In this document: piece after piece, positions 24,694-30,774 of the stretch | How positions within the stretch are numbered: position 1 is the first letter of the stretch | Layout of the letters: every line of letters starts with the position of its first letter | Source: a virus | Taxonomy: Duplodnaviria > Heunggongvirae > Uroviricota > Caudoviricetes | Strand: one strand, 5' to 3' | IMG/VR virus record: IMGVR_UViG_2778261035_000005 | Length of the DNA stretch: 64,000 nucleotides | Notes under the pieces: model-generated | What the model saw: the letters and a program-made list of their open reading frames with translations, nothing else | Told to the model about the DNA's origin: nothing | The model's database searches: none | Program-made: the position numbers and the translations under genes

Positions 24694-24743
24694 TATTAGC
24701 GCAATGAATGCGTAGAATTAACGGAAAAAGGAGTTTTCCATCA

Positions 24744-25490
24744 ATGTCTAATACCCATGTAAAAAACATCAAACTTGGTGCCTGTAAGGTGTCGTTTGGT
24801 GGTGTGGATTTGGGTTACACCAAAGGTGGTGTTCAGGTTGAAGTAGCCACTGAAACGCTGAAAGTCACCGTCGATCAGTTGGGGCAGACCGTAATTTCCG
24901 AATTAGTTCAGGGGCGCAACATTACCATCACCGCGCCTCTGGCTGAGTCTGTACTCCAAAACATGGTTGACCTGATGCCTGGTTCTACTCTGAGCGAAGA
25001 TGACAACTCTGTCACGATCACATCTGCACAGGGCGTTAACCTGATTGATGTGGCGAAGGAGCTGGTTCTGACTCCGCAGGACACCACCGACTATGTGTTG
25101 ACCATCCCGAAAGCGGCAACCGCGGGCAACTTCACTATGACCTACCAGTCTGATGATGTTCGTGTGTTCTCTGTTCAGTTCAGCGCATACCCGGATGATG
25201 AAGGCGTTCTGGGCAAAATGAGCGGTCCTAAACCGGTAAAAACTGTGTCGATCTCACCGGAATCTCCAACCGTAAAAGCTGGAGAAACTGTGCAACTGAC
25301 AGCCGAAATCACTCCAGCTGATGCCGCAGACAAAACCGGTGTTTGGGAATCCGAAGACCAGGAAAAGGCCACGGTAGATCAAACGGGTCTTGTGCGCGGT
25401 GTGGCGCAGGGTACTGCAAACATCTCCTTCACCAGCAATAGCGGTTCTAAGAAGGCTACTAAGTCAGTAACGATTAACTCCGCAGATTAA
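24744..25490 (+). CDS. major tail protein with C-terminal Ig-like (BIG2) domain
   Basis: aaggag RBS before ATG 24744; C-terminus has the same BIG2 pattern as 21164 gene; position before G/GT and tape measure. Confidence 0.7.
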   Translation: MSNTHVKNIKLGACKVSFGGVDLGYTKGGVQVEVATETLKVTVDQLGQTVISELVQGRNITITAPLAESVLQNMVDLMPGSTLSEDDNSVTITSAQGVNLIDVAKELVLTPQDTTDYVLTIPKAATAGNFTMTYQSDDVRVFSVQFSAYPDDEGVLGKMSGPKPVKTVSISPESPTVKAGETVQLTAEITPADAADKTGVWESEDQEKATVDQTGLVRGVAQGTANISFTSNSGSKKATKSVTINSAD

Positions 25491-25545
25491 TCAGTAATTA
25501 AGCAGAGGCTCAGGATGAGCCTCTCTTTTAAAAGGATTTTAACCA

Positions 25546-25863
25546 ATGACCAAATTACTCGATCTCGATTCCATTCTGCCTCCGAAGAAAAGCATCAAAT
25601 TTGGCGGTCAGGAATATCCCATCGTTGAAATGACGGTAGGTCTGTTCGTTTCCATCAAGCAGATGGAAGGCAAAGATCTCATGAACATGTCTCCTGTTGA
25701 GCAAGTGACAGCTTATGCAGATCTGGTTCGTAAGGTTATCCCTTCAGTACCTGACGAAGTTCTTGAAAAACTGACTGTTCCGCAACTCCAGCAGATCTTC
25801 ACCTTCGCTATGGAAGTGATTGATGAAGAAAACGAAAAAGCGGCTGGCGAAGGGGCAAAGTAA
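25546..25863 (+). CDS. tail assembly chaperone (lambda G-like)
   Basis: Small ORF between major tail and tape measure genes. Confidence 0.6.
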   Translation: MTKLLDLDSILPPKKSIKFGGQEYPIVEMTVGLFVSIKQMEGKDLMNMSPVEQVTAYADLVRKVIPSVPDEVLEKLTVPQLQQIFTFAMEVIDEENEKAAGEGAK

Positions 25864-26213
25864 TTTCCCGCGATGAATCCGGGACAAGGACCGTCTCAAT
25901 AGATCTCGGATTCTATTTCAGTCGTGTAGTTGCTCACTACGCCGTGTCGCCATTAGAGCTACTGAACGTTCCTCTCACGATGTTCTGGATGCTCAGTCGC
26001 AATATAGACCGTCTGCGTGCGGAAGAGGATGTCCGCAACTTACAAGTCGCTCGTGCGTCCCAGGCGGATGGCGAGGCTGTGAAGGCGTTCATGGAGGGTT
26101 TGCAACTCAGGATTGGAAGACCAGTCGTAACAGATAAAGTCTACGATCCAAGCCAGGATAAGGCAGACCCTGACGCCAAAGAGCAACTGATGCAAATATT
26201 TGGCAGAGGATGA
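25857..26213 (+). CDS. frameshift extension of tail chaperone (lambda GT-like), reached by -1 slip
   Basis: The -1 frame is open across the G stop (CAAAGTAA) and continues to 26213, overlapping tape-measure start. Confidence 0.45.
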   Translation, partial: KVISRDESGTRTVSIDLGFYFSRVVAHYAVSPLELLNVPLTMFWMLSRNIDRLRAEEDVRNLQVARASQADGEAVKAFMEGLQLRIGRPVVTDKVYDPSQDKADPDAKEQLMQIFGRG

Positions 26214-29200
26214 CAAGGGAATGTCACAAAACGTAGAGTTTATCCTGTCGCTGGAAGACAAACAGTTTACAGCGTCAATCGATCGTGCGGGGAAACTGCT
26301 TACTCGATTTGGTGAGCAGGTAACAAAGCCTGCTCAAAAAATCCAAACCTTTGAACGCTCTTTGGGTTCGGTCGCCCGTATCATTGGCGTTCTGGAAAGC
26401 AAGCTCGATTCTACGGCAGATAAACTACAGGATGTAGCTGCCGGTTTTGAGCTTGCTTCAGATGCTACGCGTAAAATGCGTGGCAACATCACCAGCCTCA
26501 ATTCTGGTCTTAAAGCCCTGATTGAGCGCGTCGATACGACAACTTCTTCAGTAGATAAACTCACCGCGTCATTACGTAAAGTGCAATCAGAGCTAAATGA
26601 TTTCTCTGATTGGGCGACCTATGCAAGCAAAAGCGCAAGCCGCTTTGGTACGGAGGTCAAAGAAGCCTCTGCGTCCGTGAGTGGCATGAATACGCGCCTT
26701 AATACCACGACGAAGCGACTCAGTAATTGGGGTGTCACAACGAGTCAGGCTGCCGAGGGACTGAAAAAGGTTCGTGAGCAGATGGACGAAGTTATCGGAC
26801 GTCAGCAACTGATTAGCAAGCCGGTACGCGTTCGTACATCTGGCAGTGGCGATGGTGGTAGCGGGCAGCGTAGCGGCGCTTCTAGTCACAGCGGTAAAAA
26901 TAACGAAGGAGGTATGTTCTCTGGCCTTCGTGGCAACATTTTCCTGCTTGGCGAGATCGGAGATGCAGCCAGAACGATTACTGACATCATGTTTGGGTGG
27001 CAGAAGCCTATTGTTGAAGCTGCGGCCGAAATGGAACGTATGCGGGTGATGCTTCGAGGGTTGAATAAGGAGAAGTCCAACCCTGGCCAGGCTGCCGCTG
27101 ATGATATGAAGTACATCGTAGACATGGCGCAAAATGCGCCGTTCGCGATGCAGGCGTTAACAGATTCCTTCGTGAAGTTTCGTTCTGCTGGCTTAGATCC
27201 AACCGATGGCTCTCTGAAGGCGCTGGTGGACTCCGTTGCTCGTTTTGGTGGTGATAGTGAGCTGTTGAAACGTGCGGCTGTGGCCGTTCAGCAGATGTCC
27301 GGTAAGGGCGTCGTGTCAATGGAAGAGCTACGTCAGCAATTAGGTGAAGCCGTTCCTAACGCGATGCAGGCAATGGCAGACGCCGCAGGCATCACTATGG
27401 GGGAACTGACTAAAGCCGTTGCCAGCGGTACGGTTGAGGCAAAGCAGGCGTTGTCTCTGATGTTTGTTGGTCTGCGTGCGGAGAACGAGAACGCAGCGAA
27501 AGACATGATGCAAACCTACACAGGTGCGCTGGCACAACTTCAGACCTCATTTACGCTATTTGCAGATCGTGTTGGTCAGGCCGGATATCTGGATTCTCTA
27601 TCAAAGGGGATGAAAGAACTGGCTTCAATCATGAATAGCGCGGAAGGGATTTCGTTTGCCAATTCTTTAGGTTCGGGGTTAACGACGGCAATCGATGGGT
27701 TGCGTCAGCTTGCTCAATGGTTAGCAAAGAACCAAGAGTTGGTAATTAATCTCGGTAAGGTTGTGGCCGCGATGGTTGCGTTCAAACTGATGCGAGCAGG
27801 GGTCATGGGGGTAGTTGGCGCTGGCAGCCAGATGGTTAGCACCTTTGCCACGATGGCGACCGCTATACAGACTCCATTTAACCTCGGCGCTACAGCAGTA
27901 ACTCGATTCAATCGTGCGGCACGTCTGGGGCTGGCTCCGATCCCCTCTCTTATTTTCGCCATCCGTGGGGCGATTACGGGGCTTAAAGGCGCTTTTGCAG
28001 GATTAACGGCGTTCATTGCGGCAAACCCTATAGGGGCAGCATTTACAGTCGCCACTGTAGCTGTTGCTGGCCTAATCACGTACATGACCATGCTCCGCAG
28101 CGAAACTTCAAAGGTCGTTGACGAGATTAGGAAAATACCAGAGGCGATGACGGCGGCCAAACGTGCACAAATGGCCGACCGCGCAGAAAAGCTCGAAAAG
28201 CAGATTCTTGCTGATCAACGAGCATTAAAAACTGGTGAGGGTGTTAATTACGTATCTAACTCTGCCGGTGTTATTACTCACAAAGAGTCGAAGGCTGACA
28301 TCGAAGCACGCCTGAAAAAAAATCAGGAGGAGTATCAAAAGATAACCGGCACGATAGCTCTTGGTGACGGCGCTGTAGCAAAGCGTTTGGCTAAAGAGGC
28401 TGCCGAATCTCAGATTGAGAAAATTCGAGCGGAAAACCAGATTTTCGCGGCAACATTCGTGAAAGCCCGGCAAGAGGCTCTGGATAAGATCCGGAAAATC
28501 AATGATGACGGTTCACTTTCAGATGACGAAAAGAACAAGCTATTGGCACCGTTACGTGAAACGGTAAACAAAAGCTATCTGGAGCCTGCGCAAAAACTGG
28601 TTGATTCACTTTCTTCTCGTAAGAATGCGACCGAGAAGCAAATTGCGACTCTTAATGATCAGCTTGAAAAAGCCAAAAAGGATGGAAATACCGAGCAGAT
28701 CCAGAAACTGCAAGGCAGTATTCGTGGTTATCAGGAGCATTTGGAAGCCGTTGCTCAGGAGCTGACTCAGGCAGAGTTCGAGAGAGATAACGCGGCCAAA
28801 ACTGGTAAGGGCGTAATGTCAAACCAGGGGACTGTTCTGGGGTTAGGTACAACTGATAAAGCTGCTCAGAAGGCGTTGGCGCAATATATGCGAAACCAGA
28901 TGGATTCTGCGACTTATCAGCGTACTTTGCCTGACGGCACTCCGATGATGGACTTCGAAGGTAAGCCGATTATTGGGCCTAAACAACTCAAGACGCAGCT
29001 TAATTTGCAGAAAGCATCCAGTGCCAGCTCTCTGGAGAAAATGAGCGATGAAGAGCGTGCCGCAGCCATTGCCGCACTTACTAAAGCTCGTGAACAGGAT
29101 GCAGCAGCTGCCGAGAAAGCAGCCCAACGATCAGCTAACGCCTCGCAGCGTGCGGCCAAGAAGGAACAGGCAGCGCAACAGAAACTGGCAGCCGGATACC

Positions 29201-30774
29201 AGAAGGCTCTGGACAAGGCTGATCAGCTTATGGGGCAAATGGGTGAAAGCTCTAAGGCTACGGTATCGTTTGATCAGTCTCTTCGCGATACAACGAAATC
29301 GCTGACAGATTTGGCTAATGCGGTACCTAACGAGTTCATCACTCAAGAGATGATCGACAAGGCGAAAAAACGTCTTGAAGACCTCAAAAATGCGACACCT
29401 GAATATCGCGAGATGTTTAATCGCCGCAATGTTGAGCAGATGATCTCCACTTGGGCACCGGAGGCGGATTCCATTATTAGTGCTGGCTATACGCCGTCTC
29501 GCGAAGAGAAAGTTGCTGATTTCGAAGACACCTACAACCGCAATCTCAAAGCGTTGATAGAACTTCGTGATAAGGCGTCTGATCCTAAAGTTGTGGCGCT
29601 TTATACAAAGAAAATCAATCAACTGATTGCTGCTGGCAATACCGCGCTTATTAAAGAGACGGGGACTGCGACGCAGAAGTTGGCACTGGAATACGAAAAT
29701 CTGGCAGAGCAGATCGAAAGCACCTGGACTGATTTGTTTAGTGGCTTAACTGATGTCCTGACTGATTTCGTTATTAACGGGAAGATGAGCTTCTCCAGCC
29801 TATCTCAGTCCATTTTGAAAGATATCACCAATATGGTCGTGAAGTCGCAGATCACGCTGCCTCTAATGAACATGTTGGGGATGGGAACCACCGCAGCTGG
29901 TAGTTCACAGAGTGGTAATTTGCTCACCGGGGTTGCTTCCGCAGTTGCCAATCAAGGTGTGCGCATAAGCAACACTGTTAATGGCGACAAGTCGGTAGGA
30001 GAAGCCACGAAGGAGACGTCCAGTTCGGTAACTGGATTGGGGCAAACAACACAGCAGACCACCAGCGCAATTGGCACTGCAACAAATGCGATTGGTAGCT
30101 GGGTATCAGGGCTATTTGATAGCACCGAAGCCAAAGATGCTGAGACAAAAGCAGTGAAGGATTCCATCTTCTCGATGCAGAACCTCAGCTCTGTTACCGG
30201 CGCGCTGTCTGCCGCGTTTGCAATGCTTGGAGCTAATGCTTCCGGCTCTGGTAATAAGTGGTTGAGTTTTGGAGCAACGGTTGCATCTGGTCTTGTTTCA
30301 GCTTGGGCTGGCGGTGGTTTCGACAGCGTGACATCAAGCTCTGCTAAAACCGCAACCAGCAGTGTGGCTGACGGAACTAAAGGCATTCCTGCAATCCCGA
30401 AGTTTGCAAATGGAGGAATATTCGGAAAAGACGGCGTGATCCCGCTCCGGGCATACCAGAAAGGCGGTATTGCTAACTCGCCTCAATTAGCGTTGTTTGG
30501 GGAAGGTTCTATGAATGAGGCGTATGTTCCATTGCCTGATGGCCGAACAATCCCTGTAACGCTCAGTACCGATGGTATGAGTGGAGGCGGAAATGTTCTT
30601 TCTCCTGTATCAATTGAGATCAACGTCCATAGTGACGGTAGCACGACAGAATCCGGCGATACAGAAAGCATATGGAACAATGCCGCTCAACGGATGAAAG
30701 CAATCGCGCTTGAGACTATCGCTCAAGAGAAACGCCCTGGCGGGTCACTCAACCCAAACACTCAACGTAACTAA
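26200..30774 (+). CDS. tail tape measure protein
   Basis: 1524 aa, helix-rich with hydrophobic central segment; position. Confidence 0.9.
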   Translation: MAEDDKGMSQNVEFILSLEDKQFTASIDRAGKLLTRFGEQVTKPAQKIQTFERSLGSVARIIGVLESKLDSTADKLQDVAAGFELASDATRKMRGNITSLNSGLKALIERVDTTTSSVDKLTASLRKVQSELNDFSDWATYASKSASRFGTEVKEASASVSGMNTRLNTTTKRLSNWGVTTSQAAEGLKKVREQMDEVIGRQQLISKPVRVRTSGSGDGGSGQRSGASSHSGKNNEGGMFSGLRGNIFLLGEIGDAARTITDIMFGWQKPIVEAAAEMERMRVMLRGLNKEKSNPGQAAADDMKYIVDMAQNAPFAMQALTDSFVKFRSAGLDPTDGSLKALVDSVARFGGDSELLKRAAVAVQQMSGKGVVSMEELRQQLGEAVPNAMQAMADAAGITMGELTKAVASGTVEAKQALSLMFVGLRAENENAAKDMMQTYTGALAQLQTSFTLFADRVGQAGYLDSLSKGMKELASIMNSAEGISFANSLGSGLTTAIDGLRQLAQWLAKNQELVINLGKVVAAMVAFKLMRAGVMGVVGAGSQMVSTFATMATAIQTPFNLGATAVTRFNRAARLGLAPIPSLIFAIRGAITGLKGAFAGLTAFIAANPIGAAFTVATVAVAGLITYMTMLRSETSKVVDEIRKIPEAMTAAKRAQMADRAEKLEKQILADQRALKTGEGVNYVSNSAGVITHKESKADIEARLKKNQEEYQKITGTIALGDGAVAKRLAKEAAESQIEKIRAENQIFAATFVKARQEALDKIRKINDDGSLSDDEKNKLLAPLRETVNKSYLEPAQKLVDSLSSRKNATEKQIATLNDQLEKAKKDGNTEQIQKLQGSIRGYQEHLEAVAQELTQAEFERDNAAKTGKGVMSNQGTVLGLGTTDKAAQKALAQYMRNQMDSATYQRTLPDGTPMMDFEGKPIIGPKQLKTQLNLQKASSASSLEKMSDEERAAAIAALTKAREQDAAAAEKAAQRSANASQRAAKKEQAAQQKLAAGYQKALDKADQLMGQMGESSKATVSFDQSLRDTTKSLTDLANAVPNEFITQEMIDKAKKRLEDLKNATPEYREMFNRRNVEQMISTWAPEADSIISAGYTPSREEKVADFEDTYNRNLKALIELRDKASDPKVVALYTKKINQLIAAGNTALIKETGTATQKLALEYENLAEQIESTWTDLFSGLTDVLTDFVINGKMSFSSLSQSILKDITNMVVKSQITLPLMNMLGMGTTAAGSSQSGNLLTGVASAVANQGVRISNTVNGDKSVGEATKETSSSVTGLGQTTQQTTSAIGTATNAIGSWVSGLFDSTEAKDAETKAVKDSIFSMQNLSSVTGALSAAFAMLGANASGSGNKWLSFGATVASGLVSAWAGGGFDSVTSSSAKTATSSVADGTKGIPAIPKFANGGIFGKDGVIPLRAYQKGGIANSPQLALFGEGSMNEAYVPLPDGRTIPVTLSTDGMSGGGNVLSPVSIEINVHSDGSTTESGDTESIWNNAAQRMKAIALETIAQEKRPGGSLNPNTQRN

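What the first reader, a model, noticed from the sequence alone, without database searches (positions are those of the whole stretch)
25850..26213. Probable -1 programmed frameshift joining the two tail chaperone ORFs
The frame of 25944-26213 is open upstream across the stop of 25546-25863. A -1 slip at CAAAGTAA (lysyl-tRNA re-pairing AAG to AAA at the stop) would make a G-T-type fusion ending over the tape-measure start, the conserved arrangement in long-tailed phages. The slippery site is not the lambda GGGAAAG heptamer.
Basis: partly seen in the sequence, partly recalled or inferred. Interest (0 to 1): 0.45.

Follow-up and report, generated by a model that had tools for sequence, protein, structure and literature searches.

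The report
Unannotated tail-chaperone frameshift in SSU5-like phage-plasmids
The two small genes between the tail-tube and tape-measure genes of this SSU5/pHCM2/pMT1-type phage-plasmid are almost certainly joined by a programmed -1 ribosomal slip at A_AAG next to the stop codon: the usual long-tailed-phage arrangement with an uncommon short slip site, and not annotated in any record examined.

Summary
ORF1 (25546-25863, 105 aa) ends GCA AAG TAA. The -1 frame is open from 25827 to 26213.

The window is an E. coli SSU5/Cyrano-type phage-plasmid. ORF1 lies between the major tail protein and the tape-measure gene, and its predicted fold matches tail assembly chaperones.

Comparative evidence supports a -1 frameshift:
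- A_AAG_TAR is invariant in every intact relative, down to about 65% protein identity.
- In many relatives a -1 frame TGA limits the overlap to 13 nt (AGGGGCAAAGTAA), which rules out the other candidate, GAA_AAA_G.
- The 125-nt "spacer" after the stop has no canonical start before 25944. It still varies like coding sequence in the -1 frame (variable sites 20/7/36 by codon position, p=2e-9), and its indels are multiples of 3.
- Up to the stop, the periodicity follows the ORF1 frame.
- The homologous gene pair in Pseudomonas phage nickie carries the canonical C_CCA_AAG heptamer and a hairpin at the same place.

A conserved hairpin (25869-25926) with suppressed synonymous change is a candidate stimulator.

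None of the annotated records I read marks a frameshift. It is a new member of a known kind, with a tetranucleotide slip site beside the stop. Interest is modest. No protein-level evidence exists.

The parts
24708..25490 (+). Major tail (tube) protein with C-terminal Ig-like domain; the upstream neighbour that defines the position of the chaperone genes
   Evidence: PHROG hits to 'Ig domain containing protein' (1.8e-162) and several 'major tail protein' families. Annotated 'Tail protein' or 'Ig domain containing protein' in Cyrano and SSU5.
25546..25863 (+). Gene G equivalent: tail assembly chaperone, 105 aa, ending ...GEGAK-stop. This is the normal (0-frame) product.
25857..25860 (+). Slip site A_AAG: tRNA-Lys re-pairs from AAG (25858-60) to AAA (25857-59). 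The next codon read is GUA (25860-62).
   Evidence: Invariant in all intact relatives. It is the only slip-capable position inside the 13-nt overlap left in many relatives. A_AAG is the most shift-prone Z_ZZN tetramer in E. coli (PMC4066793).
25861..25863 (+). ORF1 stop codon (TAA here, TAG in some relatives), directly 3' of the slip codon. Proposed slow-to-decode A-site codon ('shifty stop').
   Evidence: Always immediately follows AAG in all intact relatives, as either TAA or TAG. Family members at 38-48% identity still end in A-K.
25860..26213 (+). T segment: -1 frame extension of 117 codons (VISRDESG...IFGRG) plus stop TGA at 26211-13. Fusion product G-T = 222 aa.
   Evidence: Open frame. 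phrog_1131. Coding periodicity in the -1 frame from the first codon after the stop, 20/7/36 variable sites, chi2 40.1, p 2e-9. Indels only in multiples of 3. Colinear with the nickie conceptual G-T fusion, E 1e-20.
25869..25926 (+). Candidate stimulatory hairpin. Outer helix CGCGAU (25869-74) pairs with GUCGUG (25921-26). Inner helix GAAUCCGG (25875-82) pairs with UCGGAUUC (25906-13). Its base lies 8 nt after AAG and 5 nt after the stop.
   Evidence: RNAalifold and MFE predictions. Inner helix paired in 100% of 23 distinct sequences; 4 of 8 pairs vary and all stay compatible; one double compensatory change. Synonymous variation is suppressed over both arms (obs/exp 0.21-0.48) but about 1.0 in the loop. 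The L101 lineage keeps the same overall hairpin with a remodelled middle. Thermodynamic z-score is only -1 to -2.
26221..30774 (+). Tape measure protein (1517 aa from ATG 26221); the downstream neighbour.
   Evidence: phrog_1292 'tail length tape measure protein', E=0. Annotated as such in all annotated relatives.

Best explanation
Genes 25546-25863 and 25860-26213 are the G and T parts of a lambda-type tail assembly chaperone pair.

Most ribosomes terminate at TAA 25861-63 and make the 105-aa chaperone. A minority shift -1 when tRNA-Lys, decoding AAG 25858-60, re-pairs with AAA 25857-59. They then read GUA 25860-62 and continue for 117 codons, giving a 222-aa G-T fusion (...GEGAK|VISRDESG...) that ends 8 nt before the tape-measure start.

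The site is a Z_ZZN tetramer, not a tandem-slippage heptamer. I think the slip most likely occurs with tRNA-Lys in the P site while the adjacent stop codon sits undecoded in the A site. The hairpin whose base lies 5 nt after the stop probably helps.

By analogy with lambda, G and the G part of G-T coat the tape-measure protein and the T part recruits the major tail protein, so the shift frequency sets the G:GT ratio.

Shown by computation: the frames, the conservation, the coding signature, the fold similarity and the synteny. Inferred: that the slip occurs, its efficiency, the P-site versus A-site route, the role of the hairpin, and the assembly function.

The confidence of 0.85 is for a -1 frameshift at A_AAG producing a G-T fusion. 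Within that, I put the P-site/stop route at about 0.55 and the A-site or translocation route at about 0.3.
For: - Gene order is major tail protein, G, T, tape measure.
- ORF1 has a chaperone-like fold.
- A_AAG_TAR is invariant in all intact relatives among 99 loci (70 unique) and in four further lineages. The -1 frame is open about 117 codons downstream in all untruncated ones.
- In SSU5, pMT1, AnCo3, Cronobacter and Kp N4b types a -1 frame TGA leaves only a 13-nt overlap.
- Variable sites by codon position: in the ORF1 frame up to the stop, 1/12, 3/12, 8/13. In the -1 frame right after it, 20/41, 7/42, 36/42, p 2e-9. Indels are multiples of 3.
- No canonical start lies between 25827 and 25944. 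GTG 25944 and ATG 25980 are not conserved, none of the candidate starts has an SD, and annotated starts differ between records.
- The homologous pair in phage nickie has C_CCA_AAG, a 6-bp hairpin 8 nt downstream, and T in the -1 frame. The conceptual fusions align across the junction, E 1e-20.
- Literature: A_AAG is the best tetramer in E. coli, reaching 5.6% with a pseudoknot (PMC4066793). CGA_AAG tetramer shifts are known in B. subtilis cdd and IS1222, and the lambda G:GT ratio is about 30:1 (PMC5009743). P-site slippage on X_XXN next to a slowly decoded codon is an accepted route (PMC10861913).
- Hairpin support.
Against: - There is no protein-level evidence, neither proteomics nor a reporter.
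- The motif alone occurs at chance frequency.
- Without a stimulator, tetramers barely exceed background in E. coli. The proposed stimulator is only moderately supported: one compensatory pair from one lineage, z-score -1 to -2, and both arms also encode conserved residues (ESG, GF).
- An in-frame ATG at 25989 is conserved, so some independent translation of a shorter T cannot be excluded.
- In nickie the stop lies one codon further downstream, so adjacency to the stop is not required across the wider family.
Confidence: 0.85

Rival explanations
1. Same -1 frameshift at A_AAG and the same product, by a different route. tRNA-Lys slips while in the A site or during translocation, as at CGA_AAG in cdd and IS1222 or the A-site codon of C_CCA_AAG. 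The downstream hairpin drives the slip, and the adjacent stop codon plays no mechanistic part.
For: In the homologous nickie signal, AAG is the A-site codon of a canonical heptamer and the stop is one codon further on. Sharma et al. interpret tetramers as A-site re-pairing. The hairpin base is 8 nt after AAG, a normal spacer for an A-site slip.
Against: The stop directly follows AAG in every SSU5-clade sequence, including TAA/TAG variants and proteins at 38-48% identity that still end in A-K. That suggests selection on adjacency. P-site re-pairing of tRNA-Ala or tRNA-Val (GCA to GGC or AGC, GUA to CGU) is poor and not conserved.
Confidence: 0.3
2. No frameshift. The downstream ORF is translated on its own from an internal start (GTG 25944, ATG 25980 or ATG 25989), as in all public annotations. 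The conserved sequence upstream of that start would be a non-coding regulatory element or RNA structure.
For: ATG 25989 is conserved in all aligned relatives. Gene callers and PGAP annotate such ORFs.
Against: The 125 nt upstream of ATG 25989 shows a 3>1>2 codon-position pattern in exactly this frame (p 2e-9). Its indels are multiples of 3 and it has no stop in any intact relative. GTG 25944 and ATG 25980 are not conserved. None of the candidate starts has an SD-like sequence. The upstream peptide aligns with the nickie T segment.
Confidence: 0.05
3. Termination-reinitiation. Ribosomes that finish ORF1 at the stop restart nearby on a non-canonical codon (for example AUU 25863-65), making a free T protein that is not fused to G.
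For: The stop and the beginning of the conserved -1 coding region overlap. One ENA gene call starts at ATT 25863 (P0179).
Against: The codon at that position is ATT, GTT, ATA, GAA or GTA in different relatives, so it is not a conserved start. There is no SD. In characterised systems the T part works as a fusion with G (PMC5009743). The nickie homologue has a classical slippery heptamer.
Confidence: 0.04

Closest known systems
Phage lambda G / G-T tail assembly chaperones (-1 frameshift at G_GGA_AAG; Levin 1993; Xu, Hendrix & Duda 2004, 2013, 2014, as summarised in PMC5009743)
   Same: Two overlapping ORFs between the major tail and tape-measure genes. The downstream ORF is in the -1 frame without its own start. 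The slip involves tRNA-Lys moving from AAG to AAA close to the end of G. The fusion ends just before the tape-measure gene.
   Different: The site is a tetramer (G_GCA_AAG or C_GUA_AAG, with no P-site re-pairing) instead of a tandem-slippage heptamer. The stop codon directly abuts the slip codon. There is no detectable sequence similarity to lambda G or T, and no Pfam chaperone family matches.
Homologous gene pair of Pseudomonas phages nickie and Nican01 (Nickievirus), gp141/gp140; frameshift inferred here, not annotated
   Same: True homologues: the G and T parts align colinearly (26% identity, E 1e-20), with the same synteny, T in the -1 frame, and the slip at a lysine AAG codon near the end of G.
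   Different: Nickie has a canonical C_CCA_AAG heptamer, one more codon (GCT) before the stop, and a compact 6-bp hairpin 8 nt downstream instead of the long-range hairpin.
Tetranucleotide A_AAG -1 frameshifting: Bacillus subtilis cdd (A_CGA_AAG) and IS1222 (G_CGA_AAG)
   Same: A single-tRNA slip of tRNA-Lys from AAG to AAA with a preceding codon that cannot slip. The level is low and depends on a stimulator.
   Different: A different gene context. cdd and IS1222 rely on an upstream SD-like element and/or a downstream structure. Here no conserved SD-like element was found, and the stop codon is adjacent.
E. coli dnaX (A_AAA_AAG with upstream SD and downstream hairpin)
   Same: It exploits the single enterobacterial tRNA-Lys(UUU), which prefers AAA over AAG. 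A downstream hairpin acts as stimulator.
   Different: dnaX uses a tandem heptamer with about 50% efficiency, and its shift shortens the product instead of extending it.
'Shifty stop' recoding (prfB CUU_UGA; antizyme), in which a slow-to-decode stop in the A site allows a P-site slip
   Same: A stop codon directly 3' of the slipping P-site codon. The level could depend on release-factor activity.
   Different: Those are +1 shifts with a regulatory purpose. Here the shift is -1 and sets a structural stoichiometry.

Membership tests
G/G-T type tail assembly chaperone with programmed frameshift (Xu, Hendrix & Duda 2004) | Two ORFs located between the major tail protein gene and the tape-measure gene | tested here: met
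   The order is 24708-25490 (major tail/Ig), 25546-25863, 25860-26213, 26221-30774 (tape measure). The same order holds in all annotated relatives.
G/G-T type tail assembly chaperone with programmed frameshift (Xu, Hendrix & Duda 2004) | The downstream ORF overlaps the end of the upstream ORF in another frame and lacks its own conserved start and RBS | tested here: met
   The -1 frame is open from 25827 (from 25851 in many relatives). There is no canonical start before 25944. GTG 25944 and ATG 25980 are not conserved and no SD is present. Annotated starts are inconsistent.
G/G-T type tail assembly chaperone with programmed frameshift (Xu, Hendrix & Duda 2004) | A conserved slippery sequence inside the overlap | tested here: met
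   A_AAG is invariant in all intact relatives and is the only slip-capable site in the minimal 13-nt overlap. It is a tetramer, not a heptamer.
G/G-T type tail assembly chaperone with programmed frameshift (Xu, Hendrix & Duda 2004) | The region downstream of the G stop evolves as coding sequence in the shifted frame | tested here: met
   Variable sites by codon position are 20/41, 7/42, 36/42 in the -1 frame (chi2 40.1, p 2e-9). Indels are multiples of 3.
G/G-T type tail assembly chaperone with programmed frameshift (Xu, Hendrix & Duda 2004) | The upstream product is a tail assembly chaperone by sequence or fold | tested here: inconclusive
G/G-T type tail assembly chaperone with programmed frameshift (Xu, Hendrix & Duda 2004) | The fusion protein is made at a low fixed ratio, is needed for tail assembly and is absent from virions | not testable with these tools
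   This needs western blot, MS and genetics. None was found in the literature searched.
Canonical X_XXY_YYZ tandem-slippage -1 PRF | A heptamer that allows both the P-site and A-site tRNAs to re-pair in the -1 frame | tested here: not met
   The sequence is G_GCA_AAG (C_GUA_AAG or A_GCA_AAG in relatives). The codon before AAG cannot re-pair and is not conserved.
Z_ZZN tetranucleotide -1 PRF (A_AAG type) | An in-frame Z_ZZN motif allowing cognate re-pairing of one tRNA | tested here: met
   A_AAG lies in the ORF1 frame at 25857-60. It is ranked the best tetramer in E. coli (PMC4066793).
Z_ZZN tetranucleotide -1 PRF (A_AAG type) | A stimulatory element: a downstream structure, an upstream SD-like sequence or a slow A-site codon | tested here: inconclusive
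   The adjacent stop is invariant. The hairpin 25869-25926 is conserved, shows synonymous-site suppression and has one compensatory pair, but its stability z-score is weak. The upstream AAGGGG/GGTGA is not conserved. There is no Rfam match.

The most novel reading that the evidence does not exclude
In the whole SSU5/pHCM2/pMT1 phage-plasmid clade the ancestral tandem heptamer (still present as C_CCA_AAG in Nickievirus) has been replaced by a minimal A_AAG tetramer fused to the stop codon plus a long-range hairpin. The G:G-T ratio would then be set by competition between release factor and P-site slippage. Tail-assembly stoichiometry would depend on host termination efficiency (RF1/RF2 level, growth state), which would be a natural -1 'shifty stop' in a structural gene.
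Probability: 0.35. Interest if true: 0.5.

Novelty: new member of a known kind. Interest (0 to 1): 0.35.

Why it matters
**Annotation.** 785 plasmid records in PLSDB match this region. They include Yersinia pestis pMT1-type and Salmonella pHCM2-type plasmids and Klebsiella, Enterobacter and E. coli phage-plasmids. All the phage records of this family match as well. In every annotated record I read, and in every listed plasmid row, this locus appears as two "hypothetical proteins", and the start of the second differs between the records I read in detail. Recognising it as a chaperone pair with a frameshift names both genes and restores about 28-45 missing N-terminal residues of the T part. One homologue in phage Nican01 is mislabelled apolipoprotein N-acyltransferase.

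**Tools.** Frameshift finders that look only for heptamers miss this site, for example the enterobacterial screen in PMC4066793.

**Biology.** It offers a natural, widely sampled case of a tetramer slip site directly beside a stop codon. That is useful for separating P-site from A-site slippage routes in E. coli. Otherwise it is the expected arrangement for a long-tailed phage.

Tried and rejected
- Alternative slip site GAA_AAA_G (25834-39): rejected. It is absent in divergent Klebsiella relatives (GAA GCC GC), and a -1 frame TGA downstream of it excludes it in SSU5, pMT1, AnCo3, Cronobacter and N4b types.
- G-run GGGG (25852-55): it allows only a +1 re-pairing and is not conserved.
- Upstream SD-like stimulator (AAGGGG 25850-55; GGTGA in some relatives): not conserved.
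- Local hairpin CCCG(25867-70)/CGGG(25880-83): not conserved in Photorhabdus or L099, and MFE and alifold prefer the long-range hairpin.
- Transcriptional slippage: rejected, because there is only an A3 run.
- Pfam scan of ORF1, T and the fusion: nothing significant.
- PDB sequence-profile search: nothing.
- Foldseek against PDB: nothing below E 0.6.
- Rfam: nothing.
- The search for related loci with distant family members P0034, P0036, P0043 and P0049, and with alignment A6: no loci, or no usable pattern. Because of this, the idea that distant members ending in ...GK, GKK or GNA use G_GGA_AAG-like heptamers rests on protein sequences only.
- L010 (JGI contig) is full of frame errors and was not used.
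- Xu et al. 2004 is not held in the library, so I could not check whether a tetramer next to a stop was already listed for a tail chaperone.
- Literature searches for SSU5 or Cyrano with frameshift or chaperone found no prior description.

Full report
**1. What the sequence shows**

ORF1 runs from ATG 25546 to TAA 25861-63 and encodes 105 aa ending ...AAGEGAK. The frame that holds the listed ORF 25944-26213 is -1 relative to ORF1. It is open from 25827, after TGA TGA at 25821-26, to TGA 26211-13. The two frames therefore overlap by 37 nt.

The first canonical start in the -1 frame after 25827 is GTG 25944. The last sense codons of ORF1 are GGG GCA AAG, followed by TAA. In the -1 frame this reads GGC AAA GUA AUU.

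Two details need adjusting. First, the -1 ORF stops 8 nt before the tape-measure ATG at 26221, the start annotated in every annotated relative, so it does not run over that start. Second, the heptanucleotide AAAGTAR occurs 25 times in the window against 19.7 expected. The motif by itself means nothing.

**2. What the element is**

The window is 99% identical to Escherichia phage Cyrano, which is the LF82 plasmid. It belongs to the SSU5/pHCM2/pMT1 phage-plasmid group. Twelve phage records and 785 plasmid records from Klebsiella, Escherichia, Enterobacter, Yersinia, Salmonella, Citrobacter and Cronobacter match the two ORFs.

The upstream neighbour (24708-25490) is the Ig-domain major tail protein. 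The downstream neighbour (26221-30774) is the tape-measure protein. None of the annotated records I read (eight loci in detail) marks a frameshift, and all 60 rows listed from the plasmid search show two "hypothetical proteins" under the match. In the records read in detail the second protein starts at GTG 25944, ATG 25980 or ATG 25989. Across protein databases its homologues have lengths of 74, 77, 86, 89, 108, 109 and 116 aa. One call uses ATT 25863 as its start, and others use internal Val GTG codons.

Cyrano makes siphovirus particles with a tail of about 259 nm, so the tail module works in this lineage. The paper describing it does not mention a chaperone or a frameshift (PMC9928086).

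**3. Is ORF1 a tail assembly chaperone?**

Sequence libraries do not help. Pfam gives nothing, and PHROG 893 (ORF1) and PHROG 1131 (T) have no assigned function.

A profile search found a family of 426 representative proteins of about 100-120 aa. An AlphaFold model built on 77 of them has a mean pLDDT of 85, with a beta-hairpin followed by helices.

- Against predicted viral structures, the best match and many further matches are named "Tail assembly chaperone" (best E 4e-5, TM 0.69). They include the long frameshift products of actinophages.
- Foldseek against the PDB and a PDB sequence-profile search found nothing.

Fold and position together make the chaperone assignment likely. Membership in a curated chaperone family was not shown.

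**4. Comparative test of the frameshift**

I collected 99 related loci (70 unique in this segment) from plasmids, phages, viral contigs and genomes. I then added Photorhabdus and three more divergent lineages.

*Slip site and open frame.* Every intact locus keeps A_AAG followed directly by TAA or TAG. In every untruncated one the -1 frame stays open for about 117 codons. The only exceptions are two damaged contigs, L010 and L090.

*Size of the overlap.* In SSU5, pMT1, AnCo3, Cronobacter and Klebsiella N4b types, a synonymous GGC to GGT change creates a TGA in the -1 frame. The overlap there is only 13 nt (AGG GGC AAA GUA A). This confines any shift to the last three sense codons plus the stop. 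The codons before AAG vary (GGG, GAG, GAA or GAC; GCA or GUA), while A_AAG never varies. The other candidate in the window, GAA_AAA_G at 25834-39, is excluded both by that TGA and by its absence in divergent relatives.

*Coding signature.* In 64 unique sequences, variable sites by codon position were as follows:

| Region | Frame | Position 1 | Position 2 | Position 3 |
|---|---|---|---|---|
| Last 37 nt of ORF1 | ORF1 | 1/12 | 3/12 | 8/13 |
| 25864-25988 | -1 | 20/41 | 7/42 | 36/42 |

For the second region chi2 is 40.1 and p is 2e-9. This is the same 3>1>2 pattern as in the ORF1 body and the rest of T. The only indels in the "spacer" are two 3-nt insertions. So the frame under protein-level selection changes from 0 to -1 at the stop codon, in a stretch with no conserved start codon and no SD-like sequence.

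*A distant homologue.* tblastn with a remote family member found the same gene pair in Pseudomonas phages nickie, Nican01 and relatives (Nickievirus, 112 kb), again between an Ig-domain tail protein and the tape measure. There the G homologue ends GCC CCA AAG GCU UAA. This contains the canonical heptamer C_CCA_AAG, cited as highly shift-prone in E. coli (PMC5009743). A GUCGAG-GCG-CUCGAC hairpin lies 8 nt downstream, and the T homologue is in the -1 frame. The conceptual G-T fusions of the window and of nickie align colinearly across the junction, with 26% identity and E 1e-20. The slip at a lysine AAG codon near the end of G is therefore ancestral to both groups. The SSU5 clade has lost the P-site half of the heptamer.

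**5. Mechanism**

The site is a Z_ZZN tetramer. In E. coli, A_AAG is by far the best tetramer. It reaches 5.6% with a strong pseudoknot but stays near background without a stimulator (PMC4066793). Natural precedents are CGA_AAG in B. subtilis cdd and in IS1222 (PMC5009743). Two candidate stimulators are present.

*(a) The stop codon.* It always directly follows AAG. P-site slippage on X_XXN while a slowly decoded codon occupies the A site is an accepted route (PMC10861913). Family members at only 38-48% identity still end in A-K.

*(b) A hairpin.* Its outer helix (25869-74 with 25921-26) begins 5 nt after the stop, and its inner 8-bp helix pairs 25875-82 with 25906-13.

- In 23 distinct sequences the inner helix is paired in every cell. 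Four of its eight pairs vary and always stay compatible. One pair changes on both sides, U-A to G-C, in Photorhabdus.
- Two further lineages keep the helix through G-U to A-U and U-A to U-G changes.
- The L101 lineage breaks two pairs but folds into the same overall hairpin with an extended middle helix.
- A synonymous-rate scan shows obs/exp of 0.37-0.50 around the slip site and 5' arms, about 1.0 in the loop, and 0.21-0.25 over the 3' arms.

Against the hairpin: its thermodynamic z-scores are only -1 to -2. The compensatory evidence comes from one lineage. Both arms also encode conserved residues.

I commit to a P-site slip at the stop, assisted by the hairpin, as the most likely route. An A-site or translocation slip gives the same protein and cannot be excluded. 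The nickie arrangement favours that alternative.

**6. Rivals**

- Independent initiation at the annotated starts does not explain the coding signature and the frame-preserving indels upstream of them.
- Reinitiation at a non-canonical codon next to the stop lacks a conserved start. That codon is ATT, GTT, ATA, GAA or GTA in different relatives.
- Transcriptional slippage would need a long homopolymer run, and there is only AAA.

**7. Novelty and weight**

This is the expected G/G-T arrangement of long-tailed phages, found in a large and medically visible group of phage-plasmids where no annotated record I read marks it. It uses an uncommon but known type of slip site. I rate it a new member of a known kind, of modest interest.

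The main practical gains are correct annotation and a natural model for tetramer-plus-stop slippage. No experimental evidence for the fusion exists in the literature I could search. The foundational survey (Xu et al. 2004) could not be read, so prior mention of a similar site in another phage cannot be ruled out.

Noticed in passing
window 25500-25529: A strong GC-rich hairpin (9-bp stem AGAGGCUCA/UGAGCCUCU at 25504-12 and 25516-24, loop GGA; whole fold -17.8 kcal/mol, z -3.3). It is followed by CUCUUUU and lies between the major tail gene stop and the chaperone gene. It looks like an intrinsic terminator or attenuator that would lower expression of the chaperone and tape-measure genes relative to the tail tube gene. 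The simple terminator scan missed it because the T run is short.
   Followed up: partly
window 26067-26120: A second zone of strongly reduced synonymous variation inside the T segment (obs/exp 0.27-0.38, peptide AFMEGLQLRIGR). Predicted folding is not unusual (z -0.4). The cause is unknown. It could be an RNA element, a recombination block, or codon-level constraint.
   Followed up: partly
window 25789-25860: Synonymous variation is already low (obs/exp about 0.45-0.65) over the last 25 codons or so of ORF1, upstream of the slip site. The -1 frame is closed there in many relatives. This may reflect an upstream element of the frameshift signal or a recently exchanged segment. No conserved SD-like sequence was found.
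   Followed up: partly
L104 1977-2207 (Pseudomonas phage Nican01, PP179318.1): The homologue of the T segment is annotated as 'apolipoprotein N-acyltransferase (lnt)', which is almost certainly a mis-annotation. In nickie and Nican01 the chaperone pair carries an unannotated C_CCA_AAG frameshift signal with a hairpin 8 nt downstream.
   Followed up: partly
L005 2258-2955 (Klebsiella pneumoniae pCRKP18622-1, NZ_CP027864.1): An IS1B element is inserted between the end of the T ORF and the tape-measure gene. The tail module of that phage-plasmid is probably inactivated or polar-disrupted.
   Followed up: no
L012 (MAG 'Bacillota bacterium' JAEWTL010000011.1) and L016 (MAG 'Candidatus Fimivivens' DALYYK010000001.1): Contigs 74-98% identical in ORF1 to this enterobacterial phage-plasmid are filed under Bacillota metagenome-assembled genomes. 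This is most likely a binning error.
   Followed up: no
alignments A4 and A6 (family of 426 representatives): Many distant family members end in ...GK, ...GKK, ...GKE or ...GN[AE]. This suggests G_GGA_AAG or G_GGA_AAC-type heptamers close to their stop codons. It is inferred from protein sequences only, because their DNA could not be retrieved.
   Followed up: partly
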